A stretch of DNA of 64,000 bases, from NCBI GenBank assembly GCA_040954595.2, contig CM082588.2:8230844-8294843 (forward strand), in the 5' to 3' direction. The notes under the pieces were generated by a model that searched no databases, was not told the origin of the DNA, and saw only the letters and a list, made by a program, of their open reading frames with translations. Both the position numbers and the translations under genes were made by a program. Source of the stretch: Balanoglossus misakiensis (lineage: Eukaryota; Animalia; Hemichordata). The stretch's first letter is position 1. Each line of letters begins with the position of its first letter. Of this stretch, positions 24,616-55,633 are shown in pieces.

Positions 24616-24745
24616 ATAAGTCGCCTGTTCGTTTGTCTTAAATTCTACTATTAATAATTTTGTTAAAAAATTTGCGTACGGACTGACGTTGTTCCCCGCA
24701 AAAAACTGGCATTTTCTCCACGTGATATGAATATGAGATTAATAG

Positions 24746-24890
24746 AATCTCACACTCCCAAGGACCTGGGATCGTATTTCTCACACGAGTTGGGGATTTT
24801 TTGTCCCACACGAGCCGCAGGCGAGTGTGGGACAAAATATCCCCGACGAGTGTGAGAAATATGATCCCAGGTCCTTGGTGTGTGAGATTC
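24746..24890. repeat. Hairpin end of an insertion (~24740-25385) absent from the paralogous region
   Basis: gaatctcacac...tgtcccacacgagccgcaggcgagtgtgggaca...gtgtgagattc; empty site near 51305. Confidence 0.6.
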
Positions 24891-26773: not shown

Positions 26774-29700
26774 GTGCATAGTAGGCTGTGGCCACCAACT
26801 GTGGATAGCAACACATGTATGCATCAATAGAATCGAACTGCCAGTAGACGGAGTCATATCGGTTAAGTATATAGTAGGGCATTTCAGGTTATCAGTCATG
26901 CACCTTATTATCAGGCTGTTCCATCTTATGCTGCTGTTGTTGCTACTGCTTATGTGAAAACCAAACCAATGGTTGCAATTGAGACAAGGTATCCAGTTTA
27001 GACAACCACTCTCCTCGATCTCCAGTAACGACGGTAGTTTCACTACAATAACCTGTATAGAATCGAAACGTTCAAAACACTTAATTGGTACTGACGCGTG
27101 CTTTGATGACTGTCTGAACGTTGTCCACACACGCCCTCCCGCTCACATATTTGTAACTAGATTACTTCCTACGACATCTGATGACGTTGTTCAAGACTAC
27201 ATAAAAAGAAGACAGGTATTGATACGAAATGCGAAAACCTGAAAACAAAAATATGAGACTTATTCCTCCTTCCTTATCGCACCAATTTACGACTAGATTT
27301 ATGGCTAAACAATTAACAAAACAAGATTTATGCGAGATTTACAGAAAAACAAATTACATTAATGTGATGAAGCGGAATGTGGAAACTTTACAGAAACATA
27401 ATATGTTAATAAATAATTACACCTTGAGAATGAAAATCTCGGTCACTATAAAATATTTCTTAAATACCATGTCCCTGGCAAATGATTCACTTTAACATTC
27501 ATTAAAACCTGACTCATTTGTCAACGGACATTAAGCCTGTTTACTAAATATCAATTCGACTGCCATCTTCTACTTCTTATATGACCGAAAACTTCAAGAA
27601 TAAATACTTATACTCTACAATATATGGTTATTTTCTGGTATGCGTCTGTTAAAAGCAAGTCATCTCATAACAATAAATCATTGTTCGTTCGTGTATAAAT
27701 CGATCTCACGTGACAGATATACGCCCTTCAACCAGGTTTTACCTTACGCTCTGTACGTTTGCAAATGAAATTTTTACTGTTGTTTCAGAACCTGCCCCGT
27801 CCCTACGCATGGTAATTTCGAGTTGTGCAGACAACTGATTCTCAGAGCAGCTCATTATCGAATTAATTCTAGCGACTAAGTTCTGTCGTGTATTTCGGTG
27901 ATTCCTCACCTGTTGAAGAGTTTCGCCGTCTCTCTGTGTTCAACGATGGTCTTCGAAGATTCAAACCAGAGAGGCTACACAAACGTGTAAAAGACTTGAG
28001 TTACGAATAATCAGGTCTCTGCAGCATTTTCAACTCTTGCGGAACATAATACGTCACACCGCCATTTTGGTCGTCGGACAACAGACAAAAAATGGCCGGT
28101 GTGGTTGGTTATTACCACATCGAGGCTCACGCGGACTTTGAACGTTGGTGTAAATCCTTGTATCAAGGCACATCAACAACTCAGCAAATATATTCCAATT
28201 GGACAAACCAAGGTGGCAAAGTGTCATTTGTTGTATGTCAGTTCATATTGACATAGTGACAATCGGAAATTATAGAAGATTGGGGAATCAGGAATGTATA
28301 CCACTTCCCTATCGAATTCTGTAGGTTTTCATTTCCTTATACTGTTTTAGGAATTCCTAACCCTCTAATATCTGTCAATTTCGTCACAATTAAACCAGTT
28401 GGGATCGTAGTTTTTCTTCTTCGTGTGTTTCATATACGTTGTATGCGTGCAATACTGATCATACGACATAATGAGTACCTTCGTGTTAGTTGTTTGATTC
28501 GCATGTTGAACACAGCTGTCATAATGTTTTACTCTTTCCGCAAAAATTGCAGTACTAACAAACAACCAAACAAACAAATAAACAATCAATCAATCAAAAT
28601 TAAAATCGTGGTAGTCGTCGTGATCCAGCGCTGAACTGTACGATATTCGACATAATTCAAATCAATAAACATTCCGCAAATGTTCTGTTCTCAATTAAAT
28701 ATCACTTCTTGATACAAGTGGGAAGTTTTAAAATTGGATAAAGAATATCAAGAATGTTTAGGTAGGGCATCCATTACTTAACGAATGACATTTTCTGACA
28801 TCACAAGAAGAAAGACAACAAAATCATCTGTGTGTTTAGTAAAAACACACGTCGAGCTAAAATGTCAATTACTGTATTTTTGTCATCTTGAATCACTTTT
28901 AAGTGGTGGCTTTGCTCAATAGCCCCAGGCGAAAAGGCAAAAGATTGTCCGTTCTAGGTCCTAGTTTGTGTGGACTCTGTCAGTAGAAGTCCAACCTTGG
29001 GAAGCAGAAGGAACTTTGTACTGGGAGTTAAATGAGTTGGCCAACAATTGAGTGCAAACCTGTTTGTTTCTTTGAGATACAACGGTGAACTCAATTTAAA
29101 GCGCCAACAGCTGCCAATTTTTGAAGTATTTTTATTGTTTTATTTTCAAACTTAGGGCATATAAATGACCTAACTGATGGGTGAACACAAACCTATTATC
29201 AACTTCTGATTGTTAATTACATTGAAATATGAGCAAATTGAATAGGAATAAGTGCTGCACCCGTTTATTCAGCCGCCAATTGCAAAAGTAAACAAACATC
29301 GAGTCAAAATAGCGTCATTTATCGGCTAAGGATGAGGATCGGAGTATTTGTATGGATTAAATTAGTTTCTATTACTGAAACGTACGGAAGTTGATCAAAA
29401 ACCAGACACTTGTCCCTTTAATAGGTGAAAACAATATGTTGTGGGACATGTGAAAATGTTTAGCATAGCATGTAATCTGTTTCGAATATGTGCGGAATTA
29501 AAGTTGTCAGCGCCAGGGCTAAAACAAATAGCGTTGTGGCAAGATCGATTTGTCAAGTTCATCTTTATTTACATCATTTTGAGCGCTGAATGAGGTGCCT
29601 AAACACAGATACTCCATGTGACTGGGGTGTCTTGACACTGCCTTCTATAGGATTTGCATGACGGCGATTTTTTTTATTAAATTGTTCATAACTTTGGTTT

Positions 29701-30062
29701 ATTCATTGCCCGGTGTCACCAAAAACTAATTAGTTATTGCAATTCCAAAATAGAATCTGTGTACCAAAGCTGATCGAAATCTGATCAGTCGTTCTTGACA
29801 TACGGTGCTAACAGGCAGACACAGACATATTGCAAACACATACACAGAGAACGCACGATAACATCATCACTCACGTGAGGTAAACAAGGTGCGTGCTGTG
29901 ATAGAAGAAAATCTGGTCAACTAGAAATGTAGGTTGTGCACTTAATTAGCATTAAGGGCTGTGGTAGCAGGAATGAAGTAAAACCATACCGAAATATCCA
30001 ATGGGGACAACCATTTGGAAAAAAAGTAGCAACAGGTATAAGATTGAGCTGTAGAACTGCAG

Positions 30063-32303
30063 ATGTCAGTGCCAAAACGCTTCCGTATTAATCATAATAG
30101 GAAGTCAAATAAACCTTGGATAACTACAGGTATCAAAAGGTCAATTAAACGAAAGCATAAATTCTCTAGGGTCTTTAAAAGTTATTATAACCCTGTGGTC
30201 CTAGCAAAATATAAAATTCATCGTAATATTCTTACAAATGTCCTGAAGATAGCTAAACAGAATTATTATTCTGAACAGTTTGAAAAACACTGTGGAAATA
30301 TTAATTAAACTTGGGAAGTTGTCAATGATATTTTAGTCAAGGGGAAAAAGAAAATGGCTTTGCCCAATAATTTGGAAATTTATTCCGAAGATTCTGGTGC
30401 CACCATTACTGTCACAGACCAGCGTTCCATAATTGATGAGTTCAATAAATATTTCATTTCAGTTGGGGAAAAGTTAGCACAAGATAAAAGCTATACTGGA
30501 AACCACAAAAAGTACTTATCTAACATTCCACCAAATTCTCTTTTTCTTCGTGGTGTAACTAATGAGGAAGTTTTATATATTTTAAATAGTTTGGATAAAA
30601 ATAAAGCTGTGGGGATTGATTAGCCCAAAACGTATTCTCTATGCTAAAGATTATATCTCAAGACCACTGACATACTTAATTAATTTAACACTTTCCACTG
30701 GAGTCTTCCCAGATGAGCTGAAAATTGCAAAGGTAACTCCAGTCTATAAAAAAGGAGAAATGTCTGACCCAGGAAATAATAGACCAGTCTCTGTGTTGCC
30801 ACAGTTTAGTAAAGTTTTTGAAAAAATAATTAACAGACAATTAGTTTGTTATTTAAATAATTTTGATTTATTGTACCGTCATCAGTATGGGTTTCGAGAG
30901 AAGTATAGCACAAAACTTGCTATTGTTGATGTAGTCCAAAAAATATCCGAAGAAATCGACTCTGGGAACACTGTTATTGGGATTTTCCTAGATTTAAAAA
31001 TAGCCTTTGATACAGTAAACCATGAAATTTTAATCAGTAAATTAACATGCATATGGAATACGGAGAATTACTTTGGACCTTTTTGGAAACTGTTTATGTA
31101 ATAGAAAATAGTATACTACAGCAAATGACATAGAGTCTACGAACCTACCAATAACATGTGGTGTTCCTCAGGGGTCTGTTTTAGGTCCTTCATTTTTTGA
31201 ATCTATGTTAATGATATTGCAAATTCAACAACTTTCTTTGATACACGTTTATTTGCAGATGATACAAGTCTGTTTCACTCTTTTGACTCTCATGCTATTA
31301 TTGACCCGGAACAAGTACATTGTTGAAGTACATTGTTGACTGGTGTAACACCAACAAATTTACTATAAATACCAAGAAGACCAAATATATAATCTTTCGG
31401 GGGGAAAATACTGCAGTCTTTATACCAGGGGATCACTTTACATAAAGGGAGAGCGTATTGTTGAAGTACAATCCACGACGTACATCGGGACTGTCCTGGA
31501 TAATAAACTTTCATGGAAAGAACATATAGCTAAAATAAATAGAACTGTTAGCCAAAAGGCAGGCATACTTTACATCATGAAATACATTGTTCCCAAAACT
31601 ATTTTGTTATTACTTTACAACTGTTTCATCTTGCCTCATATATTGTATGCTTTATAAGTTTGGGGAAATGCTTATAAATTCCATTTGAAGCCAATACATC
31701 TTACTCAAGAACGGGTAATACGTACACTCACACACTCAGAGAGACTCGAACATACACCTCCATTATTTAATAGGCTGGGAATATTTGATATATATAGGCA
31801 ACATGAGTATCAAGTATTACTATTTTTTTTCGATTGTATTCATAAAAACTTCCCACTAACAATTCCACAGTACTTCGTTAATATTGAACACATGTATCCA
31901 ACAAGGTCAAAAGAAGAAGGGAATCTTCTGCTTCCCAAATACGCCAAAAATGTGGGTCAACATACAGTGAAATACTATGGTGCTCAAATATGGAATCAAT
32001 TTCCGCAACATATCAAATCTGTCTCATCAAAGTCATGCTTTAAAAAAGAATTGAAAAAGTATTATTTATCCATTTGACTGCTGTGTTTTTAGAAGTGAAA
32101 CATACTGAATTTGGATTTTTATGTACAAACTCGCATTAGTATCGCCCTGTATTCTGCAATTGTATTATTTATGGGGGACTGGACTCAACTAGTGTTACAC
32201 TATTTTCTAGTCCCCTCCCATCTTATACCTATTGTATTCTTCATTCCTTTGTTAACTTGTTTATTTGTATCAGAATAAGGGAAATAAACTTATTATTATC
32301 ATT
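30063..32303 (+). mobile_element. 5'-truncated, decayed CR1/L2-group LINE (reverse transcriptase ORF2)
   Basis: KPWIT, RPVSVLPQFSKVFEK, QYGFR, FLDLKIAFDTVNH, GVPQGSVLGP, LFADDT, GAQIWN; several stops and frameshifts; ends in aataaac(tta)n. Confidence 0.9.
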
Positions 32304-34257: not shown

Positions 34258-34595
34258 TTAATCTATCTCTGAATATGGCCTTTTTTTCCCACGTCGTTTT
34301 TCTGATTGCAGTTTGTTTACACACTCCTCCACCAATGAGACTAATGCTGGTAGTTCCATGTTTTGAAACAATTCCTTTAGAAGTGTTAAATCGTCATTGC
34401 TGAAATGACCCTTCTCTTTCAAACAGTAAAATATATCTGAGGGAGATTCCAAATCCTGCAATTCTCGTTTTGGTATGAAGTCTTCTCGTAACAGGCCTCT
34501 GAGATCACGCTCATCCTTTCTGTTTAAACGCTTGTCAAGTGTCATGAAAAGGATATTCAGTGGATTTAATTGTGTTGTTTTAAAACACTGTGAGT
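34258..34595 (-). CDS. Death effector domain (DED) terminal exon
   Basis: LNILFMTLDKRLNRKDERDLRGLLREDFIPKRELQDLESPSDIFYCLKEKGHFSNDDLTLLKELFQNMELPALVSLVEE follows the FADD/caspase-8 DED pattern; acceptor cattacag, phase 1. Confidence 0.8.
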
Positions 34596-37500
34596 CTGTA
34601 ATGATAATGTTAGTGTTAATGTTATATCATACAAAGGTAAACATAACAATCAAATTACAGATTTTTCTCAAATCTGATCTAATAGACCATTTTGATATCC
34701 TGGCATATATAGCTTGTATGAGTTTTTTTCCATTGATTAAGGTAGTTGGAAAGGCTAGGGCGTCAGTTAAAATTTCATTTAAAAACACTGAATTTATATC
34801 TAGAAATGTATTAGAGAAAAATTAAACTCATGAAAAATTCGGGGCAATAAACGTGTAACAAGATATGGCTGGTTTTATTATACCTAATTTCATACATCTG
34901 GCAAGGAAGCTAGGGAGCCTTATTTGAGCGCCCTCTAGGAGAAGACTTCTCCTAGGCTATGCGCACAAGGACGGGTTCCCCTAGCCAAGGGCATTTAAAT
35001 GTAACTTGCAAACACTGATTCTTGCAATTTTCAACGATAGATAACCTTGCTTGTTTATTAAAGGCTGCCAAATTATGAACATTTTTGCATTTCTAGGGAA
35101 CCCGAAAAGCCAGCAGAAAAGCGTTTGACCCAGATAAATGCGATCCTTCGCCGTGAACTGCCGCTAAACTTTGCGTATTTCGCTACTTTTCTGCCCTTCG
35201 CCATAATGTAATGGGTTTTATTTGTGATTGAATTGGTATGCCAGATAATTTTTTTATCATGAAACTTTCAGGAAAGGCTCGGGACATCCCAAAGAACAAT
35301 TTTACGGGACAGTTTTTTCTTAAGTTTTCCCGTTGTGTTTTGGCAGCACGTTAAAGTTGTATACAAAATATCAACAAAAACTGTGTTTTCCTGAGTGATA
35401 ACTTTGAAAAAAATAAGTTTATGCTGAAAGTGTCCCGTACATTGCTGGAGGGGTTGCTTAATATTAAAATGAATACAAATTATTCAATAATTTGTGAAAA
35501 CATGTCAAGATTCAATCAATATTTTGTAAAATTATGAATATTTATATTTAGGTGTATCAAATTTCATAATTTTAGCAGATATTTTTACAGTCATATTTTT
35601 CCCTCACTTTTGAGTTTGTTAAGAATACATGCTGCAAATTTCAAGTCATTATCTTTATTCTAACTTGTGAAAATAAATTCACAAACATTGAGAGAATTTG
35701 CTTCAAAAATAGCCTTTCCAACTACCTTAAACTACATAATAGTAGGTTTTAAAATTTCATAATTTAAATTACAGTTAGTTTCATCCCAATTTCAGTGACC
35801 ATAAAAGTTTATCCTGATAGATCTGCAAAACTGTCAAACTGTCAAACCACAATTTAGAGTTGATACATTTTGCAGTAGCATACCATCATGATACTTACCT
35901 CCATTCGAAGAACTGCTACCAACTTGCTTCTCCTAGATGAGAAAAAGAGACACCCAAGTTGTAAATAACAGTGAAAGGGAAAATAATGCAATACGTTTCA
36001 ATTTTCTAAAAACAATTGTGCTTGAAAACTATGCGGTTCTCATTACAGTGATTCCCCATGTCGGCCAAAACTGGCCAATTATACTCAGCCAAGTTGTCGA
36101 CTATTGAGACATTCAGTAGTTGCCTAAACACATTCAATTCCAGATAAAATGCAAGACACTGGATCTCCATGGGCAGGCAATGTACAGATGGGCACTGATA
36201 AAAGCTTAGCAATCATGGGTGAATAAATTGTGACGGGGGTGTGATGTGTGTGTGTGGGGGGGGGGGGGATGTGCACCAAGTGATTACAATGCATTAAAAT
36301 CACCTGGGCAATTGGCCACTGTACTAAGCCAACGACAGGAAAATGCACATACTCATGGTCCACATAAGATACATTGAAATGTGATAAATTGAACCCAAAA
36401 CCTAAATTGAAAATTTTATGACTTGTAAGAATCAGATTACATGCTTTCTCTGCACTCACATCATATAGCACGGACATCTGTTTGTGGTACAACAATATCA
36501 TTTCAATTATTCACAAGCTAATACGTTTAGGTGGGTTCTTACATTTGGCATTGCGAATAACAGCTCAACAGTTGGTGGGTCATCATTTTTCTGAAACAGC
36601 ATACGTCCTTGCAGACCACGACCTCTTTGCCTGTCTTTAACGACAACATCCCAGTGGTTATCACAAAATGGGTAGTATGGTCTCTTGTTCAGCACTGACT
36701 CCAGACCATAATTCCCTTCTGCGGGGACAGTATTTTTGACAACATCTCCGTATTTCAGCTCAATATCAGAACTGTATGTTGTTCTTTTATCAGTGTATTG
36801 TTTATATTTCTCTTCAGTTTGCAATAAATCTGTAATGGATTTTTGTCCTTTGGCCTCCACCAAGTCACATCTTAAGACTGTTGCAGTATCCTTGTGCTCA
36901 AGAAGAAGAATCTTTACAATCTGATTTCCAGACTTCTTGAAGTCTGTGATGGTTGATAGCATGTAACAAATTCGTGGCATGACTTCTTTGATGTATCTTC
37001 CCAACGAATATCTGAAAACAATTCCAGACACTTTCAAGGATTACGAAAATGGTGAAATGCAATCACATGTTCTAGTCTGCTGACCCCACATTTAGAATCA
37101 TAGATTACAGAAGGGGTATGTTATATCACCATTACCTGTGGATACAATAACATCCAATCAAAGGAAGATTGCTTCAGAGCAATATCAACATAGCTGCAGT
37201 CATTACATTGCATTTCCATTTTTACAGAAGAAGACTTCAACCTACCCACTCAGTATCTGAGTGTGAAATTCCACCACATCGCGTTGTACAGTATAAGAAC
37301 AATCCTTGGTAACATCCTTCCAGTCACAATTACCATCTTCATCTTTAAGTATGCACAGTTCTGTATCATCAGATGCAACATGTGGGATGTCTGGTGGCAG
37401 TGGGATGGTTAGTTTTATAGGCTTCTTGAACTTCATTCTTTCCCTCTGGCCTCGATTGATGTACACTATAGATGCGAAGGACACATCGAGAGATTCTCCA

Positions 37501-37794
37501 CCAGTTGGGAAGACACTATCAACTGTGTTATAGCGACAGTCATGGACCTTCAATACGAACAATAAGCCTCATTGAATGTTGTCACTATAGCAGTACATAC
37601 ATGGATACCTGGCTGAATTATCTCCTGTCTAAGAGTTTAACTGCTTATAGCTGCAGCCTGCCATTTTTTTCAACAAAATCAATCAATCAATCAATCAATC
37701 AATCTAGCAACTGATGCAGCTCCACCTTAATCTATTGTCATGTTAATCTCTATGTTGGGTAATAACAGATATGGGTAAATGTTGGTGGTTGTGG

Positions 37795-37828
<34 letters not shown>

Positions 37829-40800
37829 ATTTACCTCTAATATTACAGCCTTTTCATCTTCTACGGCATCTTCTGGAACTTCGATGCTTATCCGTTCGTC
37901 TTTTTTTGAGGTAAATTTTCCACCTTCTTTGCTGATATCAAATGAGTCTTTATAAGGTCTTGATATTGCGATGAAAAGTGAAAAATGGCACACTTCTGCC
38001 TTGATATGATTGTTTTCCTGAATATGAATCAACATTTAATGGAAACACTTTTACTTTTAGTGTGTGGTCAGAAACTTCGTGAACAACTGATTAGCACTTT
38101 TGATTGATGGTGGTATATCTGCTATTTTCTCAGAGACGGTGTTTTGTTTTGCTAAATGGAAGGTCAGTAGGCTGTAATGACTGACAATTTACATGTCCAT
38201 GGATACATACATGCAAATATCCCATACAAATATATATTTACTGAAATGCAATAATGGTAAAGTTATAAGTAGTAAAACTTGACTGTGTAGATCTGTGATA
38301 TATGTACCATACGTACTTCAACAGTTTTCAACTCTTCCCATGTTTCACCATTTTTGCTTGTCAGGATTATCTGTTCTCTCTCAAACGGCTGAACATTTAA
38401 ACACTTCCTCACAAGGTAGACTGGTTTCTTTAGTGTAATGTGATCTGCCTCAATATCAAGGACATCTGACTGATACCATTCAAAGTCTGCAAGAGGGACC
38501 TTGGTGACGTTATGGTTACATGTGACCAATAATGTTGTGTCTTCTTCTACACATGCTGATGGGACTTCGAGTGAAAATCCACATGGTAATTTGTAGGAAC
38601 GTCTTTCCTTTAATGGAAAAGGAAAAAATTATATTACAAAACCAGAAATGGGGCTGGAAATCACCCCCCCCCCTCCCCATTGAATGCTAAACTGTAACTA
38701 AATTCTGTCATAAAACTCGAATGCATTTGCAAGCAAAAGCGAAGTTCCAGAGACCAGATCTATTTTATATAATATTTCAAGGCCTTCAAAAATGAACAGT
38801 TTGAATAGAAAAAGCAATGCATATATGCTAACCTGTCGGGTGCATGCACTGTTGCAAGCTGAAAATAGTACATATCATAGTTTCACAATTTGTAGATGTC
38901 CATTGAAAATTGTTTCAACCCATCTAGAATACTGTTTAAATACAATTTATCAACATAATCAGTACGTGTGGTATGTATTGCAAACAACCTATTCAGAAAG
39001 AATACTTTGTTGTACAAATTCATTAAAATACATCAATTTTACGTCAATCATCATGCCTACCTGATTAGCAGCAATAAGCTGAAGCAATCTTTGGTCTTGC
39101 ATATCCTCTGAAATGCAGATATGTTAGGGTAGTAGTTGTATTTACTAAGATATGATTACTGTTCCTGTTTTAACATAATTCCAGCTTGAAATTGTAAATT
39201 TCTCCGGTTTCAAGTCTGTGAGACTTGCATGGTTTTTTTCACTTGATATGCACTGACCTTCTACATATTTCTGCACGTCATAATACCCTAATTGACTTGT
39301 TATTATTTGTGAATTGATCTGTTGAAGATGCAGAATAAAACATCCACTTTTTGAAATAAACATTTCTGTAGTAATTACTGAGCTCAGAATCCCCTCAAAG
39401 TATATATTTTCAGAAAGATTAGATATAGGGAAACATTTTGGTTATTTCAGTGTGATCATTGTTTACACAACTATCACAATCATAACAGATGGATTAGGTC
39501 GGATTAGAATATATCAATTCACAAAAGTGACAGGAATATACAGGTTCACATCACATCACACCGCATCACATCACACCACATCACATCACATCGCATCGCA
39601 TCGCATCGCATCGCATCACATGTATATAGCACAATTATTTCGCAATGAACGTAAATTACTGGCAAGAAAACCAAAGTGAAACGCAATGTTTTTGATTGAC
39701 TCTGTACTTAATTTTTGCTCATGGACCCCACCGTATACTGTAATAGAAGAACACTCAGTTCCCAGCCTTCGATGGTCAAGTATATTGTCAGAATTGAAGA
39801 TATAGGCAACACCAATCTGATTAAAATCATATGAGAAGATAGGCGCTAGTAGACCATGAGCCAGTAGGGGTTTACCCCCCCCCCCCCCCGGGGGAATTTT
39901 TGAGACAATGTTTTTCTGAAAGCCTATCATATAATGAGTAAAATTCCCTTTGTTTGCCATCTGGGCACCGGGGCGTTTTCGAGTTATTGGCTTCTAAATT
40001 ATATTGGGTAACGTATGTAGAAAAGCCTAAAAGTGCATATAAATTGACGTAGGGGGTAAATTAGTCTTGTAAAATATTGTCTCTCTGAATGTATACCTTG
40101 AACAACAGGGAAGTATTTGGTATCAAAAGAAAGCTTAGTAAACAAGCTTTCCATTAATTACAAAATAAAAGTGATATGACAAATCATGACATCATAGTGA
40201 CGTCATAAGTCAAAATACCCTTACGAAAATGGTGTTCTGTTCACCTATAAATGTGAGGTTTTGCAAAACATGTCTCTGAGCAATTGTACTGTGATGTGTT
40301 TGGTATCAACAGAAAGCTGATTGAGTAAAGTATCTAATTATTGCAAAAAATTGATATAATAATCAATTACGTCATCATTACGTCAAACTTCCAAGTACCC
40401 TTACCAATTAGTGACTATGATGACAAGTTATTACCCTAGGAGATAGGTGCCTTTAAATAAAAAAAATTGGTAAGGAAGGTTTGTGAAGTCCATTCTATGT
40501 AAAAAATAGTGCTGATTCCAAAAAAGGCAGTCTTATTGACCCCACCCAAGACAAAATTGCCATTTTGGCACTTTTTAACCCAAAAAAGGTCATTTTTAGA
40601 ACACACTAAAAACACACTGTTTTCGTCACATTCGAAGATCTGATGACATATGATATGCCTGTTCTATGTAAAATTTGGTTGATATTACGAAAAAAGCAGT
40701 CTGACTGACCCCAAACGAGACAGAATTGCCTTTTTGACCATTTTTTGCACAAAAATGTCATTTTTAGACAAAACTTAAAACACACTCTTCTCTTCATATT

Positions 40801-43800
40801 GATTGATTTGATGATATATGGAAAGTCAATTCTATGTGTAAAATGGTGACTATAAAACATAAAGCAGTCTTTTTGACCCCAATCAATACAAAAATGCCAT
40901 TTTTGGCCACATTTTTGAGGTCAAAAAGGTCATTTTTACAAAAAAAACTAAAAACAAACTGTTTTTTTCATATTCAGAGAACTGATTATGTATGAAAAGT
41001 CCATTCTATGTAAAAAAAAAATCTGATTGACCCCATTCTAGTCAAAATTGCGTTTTTGGCAATTTATTGCCTAAAAAGACCTACTAAAGACAAATTTATC
41101 ATTTTAAACATTTTCTAGAAAAAAAATGTTTGCAACTAAAAATAAATAAAAGTCCATTCTATCTTAAAAGTAGCGATTTTTCCAAAAAAGCACTCTTACA
41201 GACTCCACAGAGGGAAAAATGCCATTTTGGCCACTTTGCTCAAAAAAGGTAACTGTTTGAAACTTCTTTCTTTATTTTCAGAGATCTTATGATGTACGGA
41301 GAAGGTCCAATTTTGTTGAAAGGGAGCCGATTCCCAAAAAATTCTTTTCAGCCCTACAAAATTGTCATTTTGGCCATTTTTGGTCAAAAAGGTCATTTCA
41401 AGAAAAAATGAAAACAAGCTGTTTTCTGCGTATTTAAATGTTTGATTATGAATGGAAAGTCCATTTTTTGCAAAAAATATGCTGATACCAACACAACAGT
41501 CTTATTAAGACCCCACTCAATACAAAATTGCCACTAAGCCATCTTCTAGTCAACAATTGTCTTTTTACGAAAACAACATAATAAATAACCTTCTCCGTAC
41601 ATCATAAGATCTCTGAAAATAAAGAAAGAAGTTTCAAACAGTTACCTTTTTTGAGCAAAGTGGCCAAAATGGCATTTTTTCCCTCTGTGGAGTCAGTAAG
41701 AGTGCTTTTTTGGGAAAAATCACTACTTTTAAGATAGAATGGACTTTTATTTATTTTTAGTTGCAAACATTTTTTTCTCTAGAAAATGTTTAAAATGATT
41801 AATTTGTCTTAACTAGGTCTTTTTAGGCAATAAATTGCCAAAAACGCAATTTTGACTAGAATGGGGTCAATCAGATTTTTTTTTACATAGAATGGACTTT
41901 TCATACATAATCAGATCTCTGAATATGAAGAAAACAGTTTGTTTTTAGTTTTTTTTTGTAAAAATGACCTTTTTGACCTCAAAAATGTGGCCAAAAATGG
42001 CATTTTTGTATTGATTGGGGTCAAAAAGACTGCTTTATGTTTTATAGTCACCATTTTACACATAGAATTGACTTTCCATATATCATCAAATCAATCAATA
42101 TGAAGAGAAGAGTGTGTTTTAAGTTTTGTCTAAAAATGACGTTTTTGGGCAAAAAATGGTCAAAAAGGCAATTCTGTCTCGTTTGGGGTCAGTCAGACTG
42201 CTTTTTTCGTAATATCAACCAAATTTTACATAGATTAGGCATATCATATGTCATCAGATCTTCGAATGTGACGAAAACAATGTGTTTTTAGTGTTTTCTA
42301 AAAATGACCTTTTTTGGGTTAAAAAGTGCCAAAATGGCAATTTTGTCTTAGGTGGGGTCAGTCAGACTGCTTTTTTCGTAATATGAACCAAATTTTACAT
42401 AGAATAGGCATATCATATGTCATCAGATCTTCGAATGTGACGAAAACAGTGTGTTTTTAGTGTTTTCTAAAAATGACCTTTTTTGGGTTAAAAAGTGCCA
42501 AAATGGCAATTTTGTCTTGGGTGGGGTCAGTCAGACTGCTATTTTCGTAATATCAACTAAATTTTACATAGAATAGGCATATCATATGTCATCAGATCTT
42601 CGAATGTGACGAAAACAGTGTGTTTTTAGTTTTTTCTAAAAATGACCTTTTTTGGGTTAAAAAGTGCCAAAATGGCATTTTTGTATTGATTGGGGTCAAA
42701 AAGACTGCTTTATGTTTTATAGTCACCATTTTACACATAGAATTGACTTTCCATATATCATCAAATCAATCAATATGAAGAGAAGAGTGTGTTTTAAGTT
42801 TTGTCTAAAAATGACTTTTTGGGCAAAAAATGGTCAAAAAGGCAATTCTGTCTCGTTTGGGGTCAGTCAGACTGCTTTTTTCGTAATATCAACCAAATTT
42901 TACATAGAATAGGATGTCATCAGATCTTCGAATGTGACGAAAACAGTGTGTTTTAGTGTTTTCTAAAAATGACCTTTTTTGGGTTAAAAAGTGCCAAAAT
43001 GGCAATTTTGTCTTGGGTGGGGTCAATAAGACTGCCTTTTTTGGAATCAGCACCATTTTTTACATAGACTGGACTTCACAAACCTTCCTTACCATTTTTT
43101 TTTATTTAAAGGCACCTATCTCCTAGGGTAATAACTTGTCATCATAGTCACTAATTGGTAAGGGTACTTGGAAGTTTGACGCAATGATGACGTAATTGAT
43201 TATTATATCGATTTTTTGCAATAATTAGATACTTTACTCAATCAGCTTTCTGTTGATACCAAACACATCACAGTACAATTGCTCAGAGACGTGTTTTGCA
43301 AAACCTCACATTTATAGGTGAACAGAACACCATTTTCGTAAGGGTATTTTGACTTATGACGTCACTATGATGTCATGATTTGTCATATCACTTTTATTTT
43401 GTAATTAATGGAAAGCTTGTTTACTAAGCTTTCTTTTGATACCAAATACTTCCCTGTTGTTCAAGGTATACATTCAGAGAGACAATATTTTACAAGACTA
43501 ATTTACCCCTTACGTCAATTTATATGCACTTTTAGGCTTTTCTACATACGTTACCCAATATAATTTAGAAACCAATAACTCGAAAACGCCCCGGTGCCCA
43601 GATGGCAAACAAAGTGAATTTTACTCAGTATATGATAGGCTTTCAGAACAACATTGTCTCGAAAATTCCCCCGGGGGGGGGGGGGGGGGAGATAAACCCC
43701 TACTGGCTCATGGTCTATAGTGATCGTTTTGGCTGTTCTGTTCTCACGGATTTGGCTGTTCTGTTCTCTGCGTAACCAGTCTTGGCTATTCTCGGGTGTA

Positions 43801-46800
43801 CGAGCCATTCGAACAGAACAGCCAACCCTAGATGTACATACCTTCGATATTTCTAACTTTGGGTTCATCTTTTAGTTCGACATTTGTCATTGTTAGTTTT
43901 GAACTTTGGTTTTCACTGCTTTCCAGCATTTCTTTCGGATGCTGACATGTCTGCTCAGTTTCTTCACTTTTCCCCTTAAGGGTCGTATATTCGATCGTCT
44001 TGGATTGTAGTAGTTCTCTAATCTCCTTGATTTCGTTAAAGAGCGAAGTGATGACAGAGAGATAGTTGTCTGTCGAGATTGGTTCCAAAACACGAGCAGC
44101 TTCTTCTTTTGAAAAAGACTCTGCCAGAATCTTGTCCGATTCTTTGGTGCCAGTGTTCAAGATGTTGACGCCATTTTGATTGACCAATCTCTTCATTTCT
44201 GATGAGAATGTGATTCAACATTGTTATCAAAATGTTATTTATTCTCGACATGCAAATCAATGGGAGAATAGTGCAAACCTGTCTCTAAGATCATAATTCC
44301 ATATGCAAGCAGATTACCCAAAACAATCCATTTAGAACAATTTTCAGCAGTAAGCTTACTTAATTCACGGTTACTAGAAGAAGACGGTTAGGAAACTCTA
44401 TTGTTCGGAAGGTGTGAACGAGGTGTTAGCTAGGAGAGTACATGTCCAAACCGCTATGTGGGGTTGTATTGGGGAACGTAGCTAATTTTTGAACCCCTTC
44501 ATCTGCCCTTTTTCGTCAGAGTACAGCGCCACTTTTTTTGTACGAGTTCCATGTAGGCTTATGGAGTGCACGGTCATAGTCTGTTGGGCTTGCGACACTC
44601 TACCATTGTTTCTTGGGTGGTTAACTTAAAATCCAGATTCAAATAGCGTCGAATTTTGAACCCCTAGAATTCAACCCTGATGGTCGCATTTCTGTTTTTT
44701 TTTTTTTAAATATATTTAGATATTTTACACCTTTTTGTATTGCATGGGCTATTTCGTTTATTCCAATTGGAATATTTCGTTGAGATTGCATACCCATTTC
44801 GATACAGTCGTTAACATTATCGATATAGCCTTTGGCGGCCATCTTGTTTGTTTTGGTTCGCATCGAATCTCTAGGGCACAGTCAAGACAAAGAATGTATG
44901 GCTTCATCATGTCCTTGAAAGTTCAAAATTGTCATAAATGTGCTGTGACTTTATAAATTATCCACTCTCTGTTCTGTTTTCCTCAAATCTGGTGGTATAC
45001 GTACTGTGCGTGCAATCAATTCCGTAAACATGAGTATGGTTTGCTTTGGATTGTAGGGGTAATGACGTCATTTTGACCGAGCGGTCAGTTATTCTGTCTG
45101 TTTATTCGTATGGCCAGGCTCGTTAGCACCTGATATCTTTCGTTTACACTAAGTGTTTACCGAGGCGAACATCTAACAATGGAGAAAAAATAGTTTCCTA
45201 ACCGTCTTCTTCTAGTAACCGTGCTTAATTTAAAACAATTTGTGGGCCTATTTCAGTGAGAAAAATATCGTAGATCATTTTTTGAACGGAAGGTAAAAAA
45301 TTCTAAATTTAGCTACCAACTACATGTATGTAGTGAACACGGCTTTATTGGAGCTCTGTACATACATTGGTAATAAAGGAGTCCAGGAGTCTTCATCGTT
45401 AACATGAGCGTGTTCATTTGTCCAATACAATATTGTTTGGCCAAATTCCCTGCACTATGAGTTTTATGTTGACTTTAAAGGAATGTTTGTGAACACTGAC
45501 CTTCTCTATCAAATCTGAACGTCTCTCCCTCAGGTAAGGTGATTGAAGACAACTGTTGACTATCCAAAATCAAACACCGTCTGATTCCAAGGACACCAAG
45601 AACTTCTGGCCGTTCATCCAACAACGTAGACAGCTGAAGAGGGCGCTGTATTTTTATCAACAGTACGATTGGTGTATGTGTGTCTCCCACATCAACATCT
45701 ATCACAGCTTCCAAAGTGCCGGAACCACCAAGTAGTTTTGATAAACCGATTCTGTTTTGGCGTGTGGCATAGACATGTCGATCAACCTCCAAGGCAACCA
45801 TTGCACCATTGTCATCTGCAGGCATAACATTGTATAAAGATCGATAATAGGCAAAATATCTGGAATTGTATGTATTCTCATTAAAATGAGCAAATGTTTT
45901 ACTTAATAGTGCGGGAGTATACTTTTTATGGAAACATTTCAAACAAATTTATTATCAGCTATAAGCATAAGAAACCTTTGAGTGATTTTGGTGTTTCGGT
46001 TTATTGAAGCGACATTCCCTTGGGAAAATCAGTTCAAAGTGATGCAAACTAATAATTTAGTTTTAAAATAAATATGCCGGACCATGTTAAGTATAATCAT
46101 TTAGCATGGAATGTCAATTGACGGAAAGAAAAACAAAGCGAAACATAAGTTTTTTAGATCGAACTCTGATATTCGCTTTTGCATCTGAACCCAACAAGTC
46201 TGTAATAGTAAATAAATCCGGTCTATAATCAAAGTTGTCAGGAGTACATTTTGTTTCATTTGGAGCAGATGATATAACGGATGCATGGATATGTTGCAGA
46301 TAACTGCATTACCTTCGATGTTTTTGTCTACAGGTGGCGCAGTTGCAGTTTTCGTTTCCTGAAGTTCATCGATAGTCTGACGTAACTGTCGGATTGTGTC
46401 CTTTAGTTTGATGTTTTCATCCATGGTCGTACGTAACTCTTGATTTTCCTCTTTTACTTTGATATTTATCATGGTTAGTTTTGAACTTTGGTTTTCACTG
46501 CTCTCCAGCAATTCCTCCAGACGCTGACATGTCTGCTCAGTTTCTTCACTTTTCCCCTTAAGGATAGTATATTCCGTCTTCCTGGATTGTAGTAGTTCTC
46601 GAATCTCCTTGTGTTCGTTAAAGAGCGAAGTGATGACAGAGAGATAGTTGTCTGTCGAGATTGGTTCCAAAACACGAGCAGCTCCTTCTTTTGAAAAAGA
46701 TTCCGCCAGAATCTTGTCCGATTCTTTGGTGCCAGTGTTCAAGATGTTGACGCCACTTTGATTGATAAGCCGCTTCAGTTCTAATGAAAATAGTAACATG

Positions 46801-49800
46801 TGATTCAACATTGTTATCAAAATGTTATTTATTCTCGACATGCAAATCAATGGGAGAATAGTGCGAACCTGTCTCTAAGATCATAATTCCATATGCAAGC
46901 AGATTACCCCAAACAATCCATCTAGAACAATTATCAGCAGTAAGCTTACTTAATTTAAAACTATTATGTTGGCAATTGGTGGGCCTATTTCAGTGAGAAA
47001 AATGTCGTGGATCATTTTTTGAACGGAAGGTAAAAAATTCTAAATTTAGCTACCAACTACATGTATGTAGTGAACACGGTTTTATTGGAGCTCTGTAAAT
47101 ACATTGGTAATCAAGGAGTCCAGGAGTCTTCATCGTTAGCATGAGCGTGTTCATTCGTCCAATAAAGTATTGTTTGGCCAACTTCTCTGCGCTACGATTT
47201 TTCTGTTTAATGTTATGTTGGTGAATACTAACCTTCTCTATCATATCTGCATGTCTCTCCCTCTGGTAAGGTGATCGAAGACAACTGTTGGCTATCAAAA
47301 ATCAAACACCGTCTGATTCCAAGGACACCGAGAACTTCTGGCCGTTCATCCAACAACGAAGACAACTGTAGAGGGCGCTGTATTCTTATCAACAGTACGA
47401 TTGGTGTCTGTGTGTCTCCCACATCAACATCTATCTCAGCTTCCAAATTGCCGGAACCACCAAGTAGTTTTGATAAACCGATTCTGTTTTGGCGTGTGGC
47501 ATAGACAGACCTGTCAGTCTCCACGGCAACAACTGCGCTCTTGTCATCTACATTCGCAAACGACACAGAGAAAGGCTCAATAAAGGATATGCATTCTCAT
47601 AAAAGAGTATTTTTCAACAGTATTTTTTCTTCTGGTTGAATCTTTAAGTGCCTATGAAAAAAAACCTATAAACTCATAGCCTGTCAGCTAGAAACAAAAG
47701 CAGTCATAAAAAAACTCAACTTGAAGAATAAGTCTTGTTCTATGCTGCCATCCATAAATAGTAATTACCTTGTTTAGTCAACATCTCTCCAAGTTCTGTA
47801 CTTTTTTCTCCACACAAACCACAGACCTCAGAAGATTTCACTTCCGGTACATAGCCTATAATAATTAAAGTTACGAAATCGTCATGACATATATCGTTGA
47901 ACGCATTTGCAATGTTAACATTGATCCATAAGAACGTGGGCGTACAAGTGAAAAGTTTGACAAGGTGTCAGTCAGTGCAAAGCATTCACATGAAATACAC
48001 ATGAAATCACTTTGAAATGGGTATGAATACAAGAACTTGAAAGTACACGTATTCTGCTGAAAAACACACACAACAAAGAAACGAGTCTGCAATTGAAAAT
48101 AACCAAATGTTTCAGGTAAACTCCTTTAATTCAAACGAATACACAATGTTCGGCAACATTAACTACATTGTTAAACTATTAGACTTGCCTTCCTTGATGT
48201 ACCTGAATTCTGCCAGACATCTTTGATATTTCCATGTCTCTATGGTTGTCTTCAGGTTAACGTCAGACACATTCAGTTTGTGGAGCAATTCGGGTGTGAT
48301 CGTGTCTGCCTTAAACAGATCTCCCAGTATCCCTTGCCTGTAGTCACGCCATAGTCTCTCCACTGACTTTGATGTCTGGCAAGTCAATACAACATTTTCA
48401 CTACCCCGCTTGATTTCTTCAATTTGTATGTTTCCCACACTGTTGAGATGCTCTTTGACTTTTGGTAAATCGGTTTCAGAGCTGATGTTGTTGATTATTT
48501 CATTTTCGATGAGTTCAACCTGGTGTGGAGTCAAGGTTGGACCGGATACCTTAAGCTTGACTACGATTTCTCCTGAAATAACAATATATTGGATCTAAGT
48601 CAGCCGAACATAAACATAGTCAGTGTTCAGGTCTCTTTTCCGGAACAACATTTCGAAACGCCCTATGCCTACGCGCAGAACGCAAACTGGTAATCTGGGC
48701 GTATGTGTCTCTTCCCATAGGATTACATTGAAAATGGCTAGAAAACTCTATTCTACTATTGTCATTTTCATGATTTTTTTTTCACATAGCTAAGTCAAGT
48801 AAAAATAAATTCATTTGTCAAATAAAATCGTATTGTCACCGCACTGTTTTGAGATAAATTTATTAAATATTTTCCCATAGACAAACTATTTGTGAAAAAA
48901 ATGCTGAGTCAGCAGTTTTCTTCTATTATCGACTATATTCATGGCTCTGTATTTCAAAACCAAGCACGGTGACCCCTACATTTTATTACAGATTTTCATT
49001 ATACATACAAAGGAGAATCCAAAAATCCAAAATTAAAAGAAATGACTATACTTTAAATTTTACTGATCGTACATTGGTACCAATTTTAGAGTTGTTTGTA
49101 AAAGTCATATCAAGAAATTCATCTTCATAATAAGGACCAGGAATATGGAGGGGACGTATAGTCATGTTACCCAGATTCGAGTTGTCAGTGTGTTGAACTT
49201 CATGTGTCTGTCCACTGTCAGGATTTTGCTGTCCGCCTCCACCAGTATTCGGATCACTACTTTCGGACCCGTTGTTGCTAGGGACATCTTGGACTTGCTT
49301 TTCGGTTTGGCTGCTCCCGGAATTCAAAGCTTGTTGTCCTTTGTAATGAAATGTTTTCTCTTCCCCTAGTGACAGGTGTGAAATTAGTACTAGAATTTAC
49401 CATTACCCTTCAATTTAAACTATCGATACATAAACACTTCAACATAAAACTTTACTAGCTTTTGTGAATTGAAATGCTGTTTAACACTACGTTGCAACGG
49501 TTAATCTTTGAGTGGCAAAATATGTCTAATATGGCGATTTACTATGTTTCGTTAAAAGGATCGAATAATATTTCTATAAAAACATATACTTAATCGTCTC
49601 TTTTATGTATCACCACTTACCTTTGGAATGCTCTTCAGCAGGGTCATCACATTCTGTAGGACAACGTACACTTTTCAAAAGCTTCTGGTGGTGGTCAGCA
49701 ATAACACCATTCTCAGCAGATAATTGCAGTGCCGTCTTCAGTTCTTGTGCCGCAGTCTTTGCACGGTCATAATCACTTATGATACCATTGACAGCACGTG

Positions 49801-50890
49801 CCCACTTTTCACTTCCGCTCTTAACATTTTCGTTTGGTCCCACGTCACAGTATGGTACACCGAGTGAGGGGAAGTGTTCTTTTGTGAAGTTTGCAAGACC
49901 TGATTGCCTTGGCTGTACAGTGGGCACACCAGCAGCACAGGATAGAAGACCAATCACACTAAATGGGTCGCCTTTAGTAGTGAAGTTTACCAGGATGTCA
50001 CACTGCCTCAAGTCTTTCTTTAACTGGTTTATTGGTGTGTCGTTTGGGTATAGATTGACAATTAACTGATCTGACTCAGCCATCGTCTCTAGCTTCTGCT
50101 TACACGTTTTATATTGTGCAGGATCTGACGCTATAAATCCTTTGAACTTCCACTTTATGTCTATGGGAATATAACTGTAAGCGTAAGCAAGTTTCCCCAT
50201 GCCTCGAGCTGCTGCTTCGAATTCCTCCAGATCCTGTAGGTCTGATATCGTGTGCACAGATAAGACTTCAACAGTCTTTAAGTCTCTTTTGTTGAGCGAA
50301 ATCTCGTCTACATCTTTCTCCATCCAAGGAATGTACAGAACATTCTCCACTTGCGAGTCTAGCAAAACTCGAATCTTCATCTTCAACTCCTCATGTACTG
50401 TTGGTCCAACAGATATAATGACAGAGGACGTCTCTGCATACTCCAGCATTTCATCATCTTTGGCAGCCAAGTCTGAAGGATCGAGGTTCATGTTTTCCGG
50501 TGTGTCAGTATAGACAGGAACAAAGTCCGCAGATGGGAAAACCTCTGCTTGAATACTCTTTGCTGTACTGGCAGTTCCATCCTTACAAGCAGTACCATAT
50601 ACGGTCGTAATTGGGTGATATTTCTTTAACTGTTGAAAATAGTGTTCGTGTAAAATTAACCAATCACTTGTCGGCTTCCCGTCTTTGATTGGGAGAATCA
50701 GCTCCACTCCATGACGCCTTGCTTCTTCAACTTCTTTGTCAGAAGCCTGTAACGCCATGAAGTAAACCTGGTTGTTTCCACCAGCAAGATCGATGGCCAA
50801 TTGTCTCTCAGTAAGACATGTTGCAATATTGCGACTTCTCGGCCACCACTCCTCTCCGACAACCAACAAACGATTCTTCACCTTTGCCAT
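34258..50890 (-). CDS. Gene B: GT4-like, TRADD-N-like, (unknown domain + coiled coil)x2, ZU5, ZU5, UPA-like, DED; ~1684 aa in 15 coding exons
   Basis: Exons 50890-49621, 49365-49171, 48572-48189 (GC donor), 47855-47769, 47547-47233, 46780-46313, 45815-45501, 44198-43842, 39107-39061, 38607-38317, 38017-37835, 37547-37246, 37011-36543, 35932-35899, 34595-34258. Total 5055 nt with all phases compatible. The 43842/39107 junction is inferred. Confidence 0.6.
34741..35726. mobile_element. Non-autonomous Kolobok-like DNA transposon (TTAA TSD)
   Basis: ttaa|ggtagttggaaaggct ... agcctttccaactacc|ttaa. Confidence 0.8.
36543..38607 (-). CDS. PIDD1-like ZU5-ZU5-UPA module (4 exons)
   Basis: YKLPCGFSLEVPSAC...QSDVLDIE...LKKPV...TWEELKT / AEVCHFSLFIAISRP...GGKFTSKKDERISIEVPEDAV / KFKKPIKLTIPLPP...WKDVT / PFCDNHWDVVV. 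Confidence 0.8.
39548..39620. repeat. (CACAT)n/(CGCAT)n microsatellite
   Basis: Directly visible pentamer array. Confidence 0.9.
39850..43717. mobile_element. Foldback element, ~3.9 kb, with very long inverted arms and ~128-bp internal subrepeats
   Basis: Ends tagaccatgagccagtagggg / cccctactggctcatggtcta, flanked by TAG on both sides. 39850-~41310 mirrors ~41590-43717; the right arm has extra subrepeat copies; no ORF of note. Confidence 0.85.
44366..45223. mobile_element. Non-autonomous DNA transposon, 32-bp TIRs, 7-bp TSD (P-element-like)
   Basis: TIR cacggttactagaagaagacggttaggaaact; TSD cttaatt on both sides; empty sites at ~19927 and ~46949. Confidence 0.85.
48189..48572 (-). CDS. TRADD-N-like domain exon of gene B
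   Basis: IEEIKRGSENVVLTCQTSKSVERLWRDYRQGILGDLFKAD; 384 nt as in gene A. Confidence 0.75.
49621..50890 (-). CDS. GT4-like glycosyltransferase domain, gene B
   Basis: Paralogue of 22364-23630; LKKDLRQCDILV...DPFSVIGLLSCAAGVPTV; donor AAG|gtaagt. Confidence 0.8.
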
Positions 50891-52295
50891 TTCTAATTGA
50901 GAATGAAATATGTTCGTGTTTATACAATATTTCCACGCCTCATCGTAAGAGGAATGCTATGGAAGGTACAATCATTATTGCTGCAGACTCCTTGGCCTGC
51001 CACTCGGTGGACTGTCTGTCTCACAAAGATCCGAGTGAGGGGTAATATTTCGGATTCGCCGAAACAGTGGATGTTGTAATAGAAATACGTATTGATACAC
51101 GAAACACTTAAAAACCCAGCCTTCAATAAAAAGCAACGAACGCAGGACACTTTTGATATTTTATAACATGGCAATTTATAAGTCGTGTGTTCGTTTGTCT
51201 TAAATTATACTGTTAATAATTTTGTTAAACAACTTGCGTATGGACTGACGTTGTTCCCTGCACAAAAACTGGCATTTTCACCATGGCAGGTGATATGAAT
51301 ATGAGATAAAATGGTCCCTGTTGAAAGAGTGTTAAAATGAAAACGTTGCTCTATTTCAAATTTGCTTTGCCATCCCGATCAATACTTGTAAAAACTGCAT
51401 TCATATATCACAGTACGGTACGCTGTAAACTAGTAAAATAAATGTTTTTTTTTTCCATGAGTACATAAAAGCAAATAATAACATGGAACTACTTTCTACT
51501 TGTAAACATGACTGCTGGAGCTACATGTATGCATTATGTCCGGCGAAACACGGTGATTACATAATTATTTTATGATTAATCTTACCAACTCTCTTCAGAA
51601 GACTAACATATTTAGTTGTCGACCTTAAAACAACGAAAGTTACTCGTTATCGCCAGTCTTCTAGAATTGCAGATGCAATCTCGCGCTGGCGACTCTGAAT
51701 AACTGACCCACGATGACCTCATTTGCATACTAATGACTACGTAACTTGGCTAAAAAAACAGACCATCGGCAGGTTGCTTATCACTGTCGCGTCAATCTAC
51801 ACTTAATCAAGATGAAACGATCGAAACTTTCAATTTTCGTCGCTTTTCGAGATAACAATAATAACGGATTTCCATGCCGTCTGCACACTTTTTGTGTGGA
51901 CGGTACAGTGACTCGCTGTGCTAGTTAAAGAACTGCCACAGAATGACAGCTTCACTCGTAAAAATAACTATGACAACAGTGATGGTAAGGCCAGTATTCT
52001 GATGTTGTTTTACAATGGCATTCACATGTTAGTGTTTGTGTTTGTGACTAATTCATCTACGCCTTCAGCCTTGGCTGTCACAGAAATTGACCGTAGGTCA
52101 TACAGTCCAAAGAACAGCCTCTTGATTAGTGCATAGTAGGATGTGGCCACCAACTGTGCATATAGCAACACATGTATGCATCAATAGAATCGAACTGCCA
52201 TTAGACAGAGTCATATCGGTTAGGTATATGTAAGGTCATTTCAGGTTATCGGTCATGCACCTTATGTATCAGGCTGTTCCATCATATGCTGCTGT

Positions 52296-54423: not shown

Positions 54424-54479
<56 letters not shown>

Positions 54480-55432: not shown

Positions 55433-55633
<201 letters not shown>

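What the first reader, a model, noticed from the sequence alone, without database searches (positions are those of the whole stretch)
34258..38607. PIDD-like autoproteolytic module ending in a DED, with one intact and one lost HFS site
Seen: ZU5a ends AEVC-HFS-LF (codons at 37987-37979), while the equivalent position after ZU5b reads TQ-ILS-GY, and the terminal domain is a DED rather than a DD. Established: PIDD1 self-cleaves at two HFS motifs, and NLRP1/CARD8 release a UPA-death-fold fragment after ZU5 autoproteolysis. Inference: a single cleavage would release ZU5b-UPA-DED to engage a caspase-8/FADD-type partner, with the GT4/TRADD-N half acting as sensor or tripwire.
Basis: partly seen in the sequence, partly recalled or inferred. 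Interest (0 to 1): 0.78.

Follow-up and report, generated by a model that had tools for sequence, protein, structure and literature searches.

The report
Single-cut PIDD-like protein ending in DED
A marine-invertebrate gene, likely from an acorn worm, encodes a PIDD-like cell-death signalling module that keeps only the first of its two self-cutting motifs and ends in a death effector domain, so it likely cuts itself once, and it is predicted to be spliced to a worn-down sugar-transferase front end that may act as a decoy.

Summary
Observation confirmed. The minus strand carries a phase-consistent 15-exon frame of 1,684 aa: GT4, TRADD-N-like, two repeats of an unassigned domain plus helical exon, ZU5, ZU5, UPA, DED. 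HFS (37987-37979) and ILS (37256-37248) lie in register at the ends of the two ZU5 domains. All eight relatives found are uncharacterised acorn-worm proteins; three also end in a DED. In 7 of 7 sequences covering both sites exactly one keeps Phe plus Ser/Cys: site 1 here and in the nearest relative (HFC), site 2 in five others; on the tree this is one lineage change. A site-1 cut gives a PIDD-C-like fragment, which in PIDD1 does not activate caspase-2, and this DED has Gly at the caspase-8 F122 position used for chain growth. A decoy role for the front half gains support: the GT4 lacks several conserved residues, and a tandem paralog joins the same front half to TPRs. The splice joining the halves is unverified. 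TRADD-N+ZU5+ZU5+UPA+death-domain proteins are in print; the DED ending was not found there. This scan earlier noted related ZU5-HFS-UPA-death-domain genes in sea-urchin DNA. New variant of a known kind.

The parts
49621..50892 (-). Exon 1: GT4-conflict glycosyltransferase domain, degenerate at conserved positions; ATG at 50890
   Evidence: Pfam PF20706 E 2e-30; boundaries; consensus comparison by eye
49171..49365 (-). Exon 2: low-complexity linker
   Evidence: phase 1-1; counterpart in paralog
48189..48572 (-). Exon 3: TRADD-N-like domain; GC donor
   Evidence: Pfam PF20694 E 0.004, below cut-off; GC donor conserved in paralog
47769..47855 (-). Exon 4: short linker
47233..47547 (-). Exon 5: unassigned 104-aa domain X, copy 1
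   Evidence: no family found
46313..46780 (-). Exon 6: helical, coiled-coil-like exon, copy 1
   Evidence: only weak coiled-coil-type Pfam matches below cut-off
45501..45815 (-). Exon 7: domain X, copy 2
   Evidence: 87% identical to copy 1; dN/dS 0.44
43842..44198 (-). Exon 8: helical exon, copy 2, 37 codons shorter in frame
   Evidence: dN/dS 0.55
39846..43720 (.). Foldback-type inverted-repeat insertion in intron 8; without it the intron is about 860 nt
   Evidence: arms 95-96% identical; same 3 bases on both flanks; length
39061..39107 (-). Exon 9: phase 1-0 exon, start of the ZU5 module; holds an in-frame ATG (aa 1134)
   Evidence: aligns with the pre-ZU5 segment of relatives
38317..38607 (-). 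Exon 10: ZU5a, N-terminal part
37835..38017 (-). Exon 11: end of ZU5a and start of ZU5b
37979..37987 (-). Site 1, His-Phe-Ser (aa 1254-1256); predicted cut between Phe1255 and Ser1256
37246..37547 (-). Exon 12: ZU5b
   Evidence: ankyrin ZU5 hits, best E 1.4e-4
37248..37256 (-). Site 2, Ile-Leu-Ser (aa 1402-1404); His and Phe lost, Ser kept
36543..37011 (-). Exon 13: last ZU5b strand and UPA
35899..35932 (-). Exon 14: short Ser/Gly linker
   Evidence: phase 0-1
34258..34595 (-). Exon 15: DED and basic tail; Gly1606 (codon from 34497) at the caspase-8 F122 position

Best explanation
The gene encodes a ZU5-ZU5-UPA-DED module with an intact HFS after the first ZU5 and a degenerate site after the second; it likely cuts itself once at Phe1255-Ser1256, is predicted to be spliced to a degenerate GT4/TRADD-N front half that likely serves as a decoy, and on loss of that half would free a PIDD-C-like ZU5b-UPA-DED fragment that likely tunes or caps DED complexes rather than starting a caspase-8 chain. 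Shown: the exon chain, folds of relatives, site states, DED residues, the paralog. Inferred, in order: (1) constitutive N-to-O acyl-shift cleavage into about 141 and 49 kDa pieces that stay bound through the last ZU5a strand; (2) attack on or degradation of the front half removes ZU5a; (3) the freed fragment, still carrying ZU5b and lacking the FL Phe, binds DED partners without extending a chain. Step 1 is about 0.75 likely; steps 2 and 3 are analogies.
For: Site 1 is at the canonical position, in register with site 2. The nearest relative P0002 keeps His-Phe plus a nucleophile (Cys) at site 1 and has also lost Phe at site 2; P0001 has lost Phe at site 2. Exactly one Phe+Ser/Cys site in 7 of 7 sequences covering both. 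Models of relatives match ankyrin ZZUD (Foldseek E 4e-20; Z 22.7, rmsd 8.7 over 394 residues), UNC5b and NLRP1/CARD8 FIIND. The buried Phe is needed for cleavage and is Leu in UNC5b (PMC3210808). PIDD1-C alone does not activate caspase-2. The FL motif is used for caspase-8 recruitment and chain growth (PMC3477315); here Gly-Leu. GT4 degeneracy in both tandem copies with dN/dS 0.39. The same front half is joined to a TPR module in the tandem paralog, the constant-front, variable-back pattern of PMC8195603.
Against: No cleavage, expression or binding data. The site pattern is one evolutionary event on 8 rows, not repeated evidence. Four of the five site-2 relatives lack His (TFS, NFS, SFS twice), so their cleavage is unshown. 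Phe-to-Leu at site 2 was never tested in the papers read (Phe-to-His was), so slow cleavage at ILS is possible. Only 1 of 4 family DEDs has the FL Phe, so invertebrate DEDs may bind differently, and the caspase-8 data concern a double Gly mutant. Sources differ on which ZU5 covers UPA. The folds were predicted for relatives P0002 and P0006, not for the window protein; the DED part of the P0002 model has pLDDT under 50. The exon 8-9 splice has no homolog spanning it. The GT4 comparison is by eye and covers only the printed half of the consensus; PMC8195603 treats GT4 as an effector.
Confidence: 0.42

Rival explanations
1. One reading: one cut at site 1, then degradation of the front half uncovers UPA, and ZU5b-UPA-DED oligomerises and nucleates a caspase-8/FADD-type death complex, an NLRP1-like tripwire wired to the DED pathway.
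For: A review says UPA-DD packs on the first ZU5 in ankyrin-B; NLRP1/CARD8 work by functional degradation; the site-1 nucleophile is kept in the nearest relative, whose DED has Phe-Leu.
Against: The site next to UPA is the lost one; PIDD1-C is inactive for caspase-2; attached ZU5 blocks UPA-CARD filaments; Gly at the F122 position and no RxDL.
Confidence: 0.25
2. The ZU5-ZU5-UPA-DED module is a separate gene (about 551 aa from the ATG in exon 9), and the GT4 half is a neighbouring partial duplicate not spliced to it.
For: The GT4 half lies in a segmental duplication whose similarity ends at exon 8; exon 9 holds an in-frame ATG; none of the 8 relatives has GT4 or TRADD-N.
Against: Phases fit (1 to 1); without the insertion the intron is about 860 nt; exons 1-8 show dN/dS 0.34-0.39 against the paralog in five of six exon pairs (1.09 in the 28-codon linker) and have no stop of their own; relatives carry LRR or CARD modules in front of the same segment; TRADD-N+ZU5+ZU5+UPA fusions exist in corals.
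Confidence: 0.17
3. The module is an uncleaved ankyrin/UNC5-like scaffold; the HFS is a remnant without function.
For: The closest solved structures are ankyrins; the nearest relative has Cys, not Ser; PIDD1 processing needs chaperones.
Against: Complete His-Phe-Ser at the canonical place; His-Phe plus a nucleophile kept at about 52% ZU5a identity to P0002; Ser, Thr and Cys all serve as nucleophiles in this chemistry.
Confidence: 0.16

Closest known systems
PIDD1 (LRR-ZU5-ZU5-UPA-DD, two HF|S sites)
   Same: ZU5-ZU5-UPA-death-fold order; HFS at the end of the first ZU5; relative P0003 has the full LRR-ZU5-UPA-DD layout.
   Different: No LRR; GT4/TRADD-N front; DED, not DD; second site lost, so no PIDD-CC-type fragment is expected.
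Invertebrate TRADD-N conflict proteins (Kaur et al. 2021, PMC8195603)
   Same: GT4-TRADD-N front with variable back end in hemichordates, cephalochordates and cnidarians; TRADD-N+ZU5+ZU5+UPA+Death in Stylophora; autoproteolysis predicted.
   Different: No 'UPA+DED' string in the stored Figure 4 data; no GT4+TRADD-N+ZU5 row among those seen; site states not discussed in the passages read; GT4 treated as an effector, while this one is degenerate.
NLRP1 and CARD8 (FIIND: ZU5|UPA-CARD)
   Same: ZU5 self-cleavage at Phe-Ser with a death fold behind UPA; structural matches 7CRV, 7CRW, 7JN7.
   Different: They cut directly before UPA; here that site is lost. Relative P0005 (CARD-ZU5-ZU5-UPA-DED, SFS at site 2) fits this analogy better than the window gene.
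Ankyrin-B ZZUD (4D8O) and UNC5b (3G5B)
   Same: Best sequence-profile and fold matches; Leu at the Phe position of site 2 as in UNC5b.
   Different: They end in DD and are not described as self-cleaving in the passages read; no ankyrin repeats here.

Membership tests
ZU5-ZU5-UPA-death fold (ZZUD-type) module | Two tandem ZU5 domains followed by UPA | tested here: met
   Profile hit to 4D8O E 1e-18; models of relatives; window matches the family HMM at E 1e-170
ZU5-ZU5-UPA-death fold (ZZUD-type) module | C-terminal death-fold domain | tested here: met
   DED above Pfam cut-off
PIDD1 orthologues | N-terminal LRRs | tested here: not met
   No LRR match in the window frames scanned
PIDD1 orthologues | Two HFS sites | tested here: not met
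   HFS and ILS
PIDD1 orthologues | C-terminal DD | tested here: not met
   DED, no Death match at E<=1
PIDD1 orthologues | Descent from PIDD1 rather than ankyrin or UNC5 | not tested
   No PIDD1 ZU5-UPA sequence came up in any call; the tree has no outgroup
Autoproteolytic ZU5 proteins | Phe plus Ser/Thr/Cys before the last ZU5 strand | tested here: met
   Site 1
Autoproteolytic ZU5 proteins | Actual self-cleavage | not testable with these tools
   Needs expression and blotting
FIIND sensors (NLRP1/CARD8) | Cleavage site directly before UPA | tested here: not met
   Site 2 is ILS
GT4-TRADD-N conflict proteins | GT4-conflict domain | tested here: met
   PF20706 106.5 bits, cut-off 26; Atlas hits agree
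GT4-TRADD-N conflict proteins | TRADD-N domain after GT4 | tested here: inconclusive
   PF20694 17.4 bits, cut-off 23.7, E 0.004; 16.9 in paralog; a GS turn is present as described
Active GT4 enzymes | EX7E motif and conserved GG/His residues | tested here: inconclusive
   By eye: Asp309...Leu317, GG and two His absent; some GT4s tolerate loss of one Glu; no structural alignment made
Chain-nucleating DEDs (FADD, caspase-8) | FL hydrophobic motif | tested here: not met
   Gly1606-Leu aligned with F122-L123

The most novel reading that the evidence does not exclude
Acorn worms have split PIDD's two self-cleavage sites between paralog lineages and rewired some to a DED. This gene is an animal integrated-decoy sensor: an inactive GT4 baits pathogen factors, its loss frees ZU5b-UPA-DED, and so NLRP1-style functional degradation is coupled to the caspase-8/FADD pathway, with front and back modules swapped by exon shuffling between tandem paralogs.
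Probability: 0.18. Interest if true: 0.72.

Novelty: new variant of a known kind. Interest (0 to 1): 0.4.

Why it matters
The family offers natural single-site variants of a PIDD-type module (site 1 only here, site 2 only in P0003-P0006 and P0008) with DD, CARD or DED ends, so one can test what each cut does and which ZU5 restrains UPA, a point left open for PIDD1 itself. If the front half is a decoy whose loss frees a DED fragment, functional degradation would extend to DED signalling. Against high interest: domain shuffling of exactly these parts in marine invertebrates is published, and nothing functional was shown here.

Tried and rejected
Word-indexed homolog searches: UPA exon, longer proteins, none; GT4 exon, longer proteins, none; family alignment returned only its own first row. 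These blanks are weak, since known relatives were missed. No genome is held, so other paralogs could not be counted. No RNA holder was listed, so splicing was not checked. Complex prediction of ZU5a with UPA of relative P0006: no verdict, score 0.00, alignment not used. Domain X: no Pfam, NCBIfam, Atlas or PDB assignment; my idea that it is a second TRADD-N was not supported by profile comparison (prob 0.8). GT4 found no solved relative by sequence; a look for the second half of the GT4 consensus in the supplement gave nothing useful. The ankyrin-B structure paper PMC3323988 is not held; two other ankyrin papers did not settle which ZU5 packs on UPA. Rejected: helical exons 6 and 8 as transposon remnants (phase 1-1 splice sites, dN/dS 0.36 against the paralog); positive selection on GT4 (synonymous and non-synonymous divergence rise together after codon 150, which fits mosaic exchange); HFS at aa 1636 as a cleavage site (inside the helical DED). 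Earlier-findings look-ups by full word set, place and sequence were empty.
Full report
Gene model. Reading the minus strand gave 15 exons from 50892 to the stop at 34258 that splice in phase into one frame of 1,684 aa (a first try had one exon end off by a base). Fourteen introns have GT-AG ends except one GC donor after exon 3, which the paralog shares. Order: GT4-conflict (Pfam E 2e-30), linker, TRADD-N-like (E 0.004, under cut-off), linker, domain X and a helical exon twice, then ZU5a, ZU5b, UPA, linker, DED (43.3 bits, cut-off 35.9). Exons 9-15 are backed by relatives: an HMM of 8 relatives without window rows matches aa 1140-1669 in one piece (E 1.2e-170). Exons 1-6 are backed by the paralog. 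The exon 8-9 junction has neither support; it fits in phase, and the 4,734-nt intron shrinks to about 860 nt without a foldback-type insertion.

The two sites. HFS is aa 1254-1256 (37987-37979) and ILS aa 1402-1404 (37256-37248). Aligning the family's ZU5a against ZU5b places them in register. A cut at Phe1255-Ser1256 would give about 141 and 49 kDa; a cut at site 2 would give 33 kDa.

Relatives. An exhaustive search with the UPA exon returned 8 proteins, 7 from Ptychodera flava and 1 from Glandiceps talaboti, all named uncharacterised; the window is therefore likely hemichordate. By Pfam 3 of 8 end in a DED (P0002 just under cut-off, P0005, P0007), 3 in a DD (P0003, P0004, P0006), P0008 has a CARD behind the module and P0001 is short. 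Front ends include LRRs and a CARD; none has GT4. Six relatives plus the window cover both sites. Site 1/site 2: window HFS/ILS, P0002 HFC/SVS, P0003 QLS/HFS, P0004 RLT/TFS, P0005 CLS/SFS, P0006 KLS/NFS, P0008 QLG/SFS; P0001 covers only site 2 (SIS), P0007 neither. So 7 of 7 keep exactly one Phe plus Ser/Cys. On a tree of 8 rows (P0007 left out; P0001 grouped by site 2 alone; midpoint root) the two groups are split by one branch, support 100/99, one change. This is one event, and four of the five site-2 proteins lack the His.

Folds. The family profile hits ankyrin-B ZU5-ZU5-UPA-DD (4D8O, E 1e-18). An AlphaFold model of P0002 (pLDDT 68.9, DED part under 50) matches 4D8O (E 4e-20), UNC5b 3G5B (7e-11) and NLRP1/CARD8 complexes (about 1e-3). 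A model of P0006 (pLDDT 76.2) gives Z 22.7, rmsd 8.7 over 394 residues to 4D8O; the high rmsd means the domain arrangement is not resolved. The spliced window protein itself was not folded.

The buried Phe is needed for cleavage in CARD8 and PIDD and is Leu in UNC5b (PMC3210808, passages), which supports site 2 being dead though Phe-to-Leu was not tested. NLRP1 and CARD8 free UPA-CARD (PMC7794386, passages) and ZU5 blocks its assembly (PMC8081665, passages). In PIDD1, site-1-only protein does not activate caspase-2 (bioRxiv 10.1101/2025.06.23.660994, passages) and is linked to RIPK1/NEMO (PMC9162469, passages; PMC7883297, passages, for fragment definitions). The window protein can make only the PIDD-C analogue. 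Its DED has Gly1606 aligned without gaps to caspase-8 F122 and lacks RxDL; FL motifs recruit and extend caspase-8 chains (PMC3477315, passages). However only 1 of 4 family DEDs has the Phe.

Front half. By eye against the printed part of the GT4 85% consensus in the PMC8195603 supplement, both window GT4 copies lack the GG pair near aa 20 and the His near aa 100 and 128, and have Asp...Leu at the EX7E motif (aa 309-317; motif described in PMC8760489, passages, which notes one Glu can be expendable). They are still conserved (dN/dS 0.39). This fits a binding or decoy role. A tandem paralog at 23632-16802 is an intact 1,352-aa frame with the same front half (74-93% identity in the domain exons) joined through a phase 1-0 exon to a TPR exon: the back module was swapped at a shared phase-1 junction.

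What is in print. PMC8195603 (passages; supplements) describes GT4-TRADD-N proteins in hemichordates, cephalochordates and cnidarians, lists TRADD-N+ZU5+ZU5+UPA+Death in Stylophora and GT4+TRADD-N+TPRs in Branchiostoma, and predicts ZU5 autoproteolysis. In its Figure 4 data 'UPA+DED' occurs 0 times; I saw ZU5 places 1-51 and 61-81 of 96 and GT4-GTase places 1-30 of 176; the file was cut when stored and file 13 was not searched. PMC3210808 includes a dog FIIND sequence labelled DED-containing, so FIIND with DED has been mentioned. Searches listed no paper on this hemichordate family or on single-site ZU5-ZU5-UPA-DED proteins; most subscription journals are not covered, and bioRxiv supplements were not seen. 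Earlier notes of this scan report sea-urchin ZU5-HFS/HFC-UPA-DD genes, unchecked here.

Verdict. A real, apparently intact gene; a new variant within known invertebrate death-fold domain shuffling. The single-site partition, the DED ending and the degenerate GT4 make it a useful test case, but function is untested. Interest 0.40.

Noticed in passing
window 23632-16802, minus: Tandem paralog, intact 1,352-aa frame: GT4-TRADD-N-X-helical exon-TPRs. The phase 1-0 exon at 18733-18621 resembles an IFIT N-terminus (recalled, not tested; one search found only generic TPR matches).
   Followed up: partly
window 13169-28166 against 45978-60114: Segmental duplication, mostly about 90% identical, covering the GT4 front half, a TPR exon and a small acidic frame.
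   Followed up: partly
window 50892-49621 against 23632-22364: GT4 copies are near-identical over codons 1-150 (pS 0.03-0.12) and far more diverged after (pS up to 0.57): mosaic exchange.
   Followed up: partly
window 60041-58840, minus: Second TPR copy split over two overlapping frames, so probably frameshifted; its upstream region is a long tandem repeat (about 60100-64000).
   Followed up: no
window 57185-56664 and 13666-13178, minus: Duplicated small acidic/basic frame with no Pfam family at threshold.
   Followed up: no
window 39846-43720: Foldback-type element with 95-96% identical arms and internal repeats of about 170 bases in intron 8.
   Followed up: partly
window 47547-47233, 45815-45501, 20529-20215: Domain X: 104 aa, three copies under purifying selection, no family assigned.
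   Followed up: partly
window 30048-32077, plus: Broken frames that look like a LINE-type reverse transcriptase between the two paralogs (by eye).
   Followed up: no
window 2471-402 and 6015-5128 minus; 8421-9575 plus: Three long frames that look like a MAP3K4-type N-terminal exon, an FkbM-type methyltransferase and a PRSS23-type protease (labels recalled, not tested).
   Followed up: no
P0005 (XP_070531668.1): CARD-ZU5-ZU5-UPA-DED with SFS at site 2: predicted to free UPA-DED, a closer NLRP1/CARD8 analogue with DED output than the window gene.
   Followed up: partly
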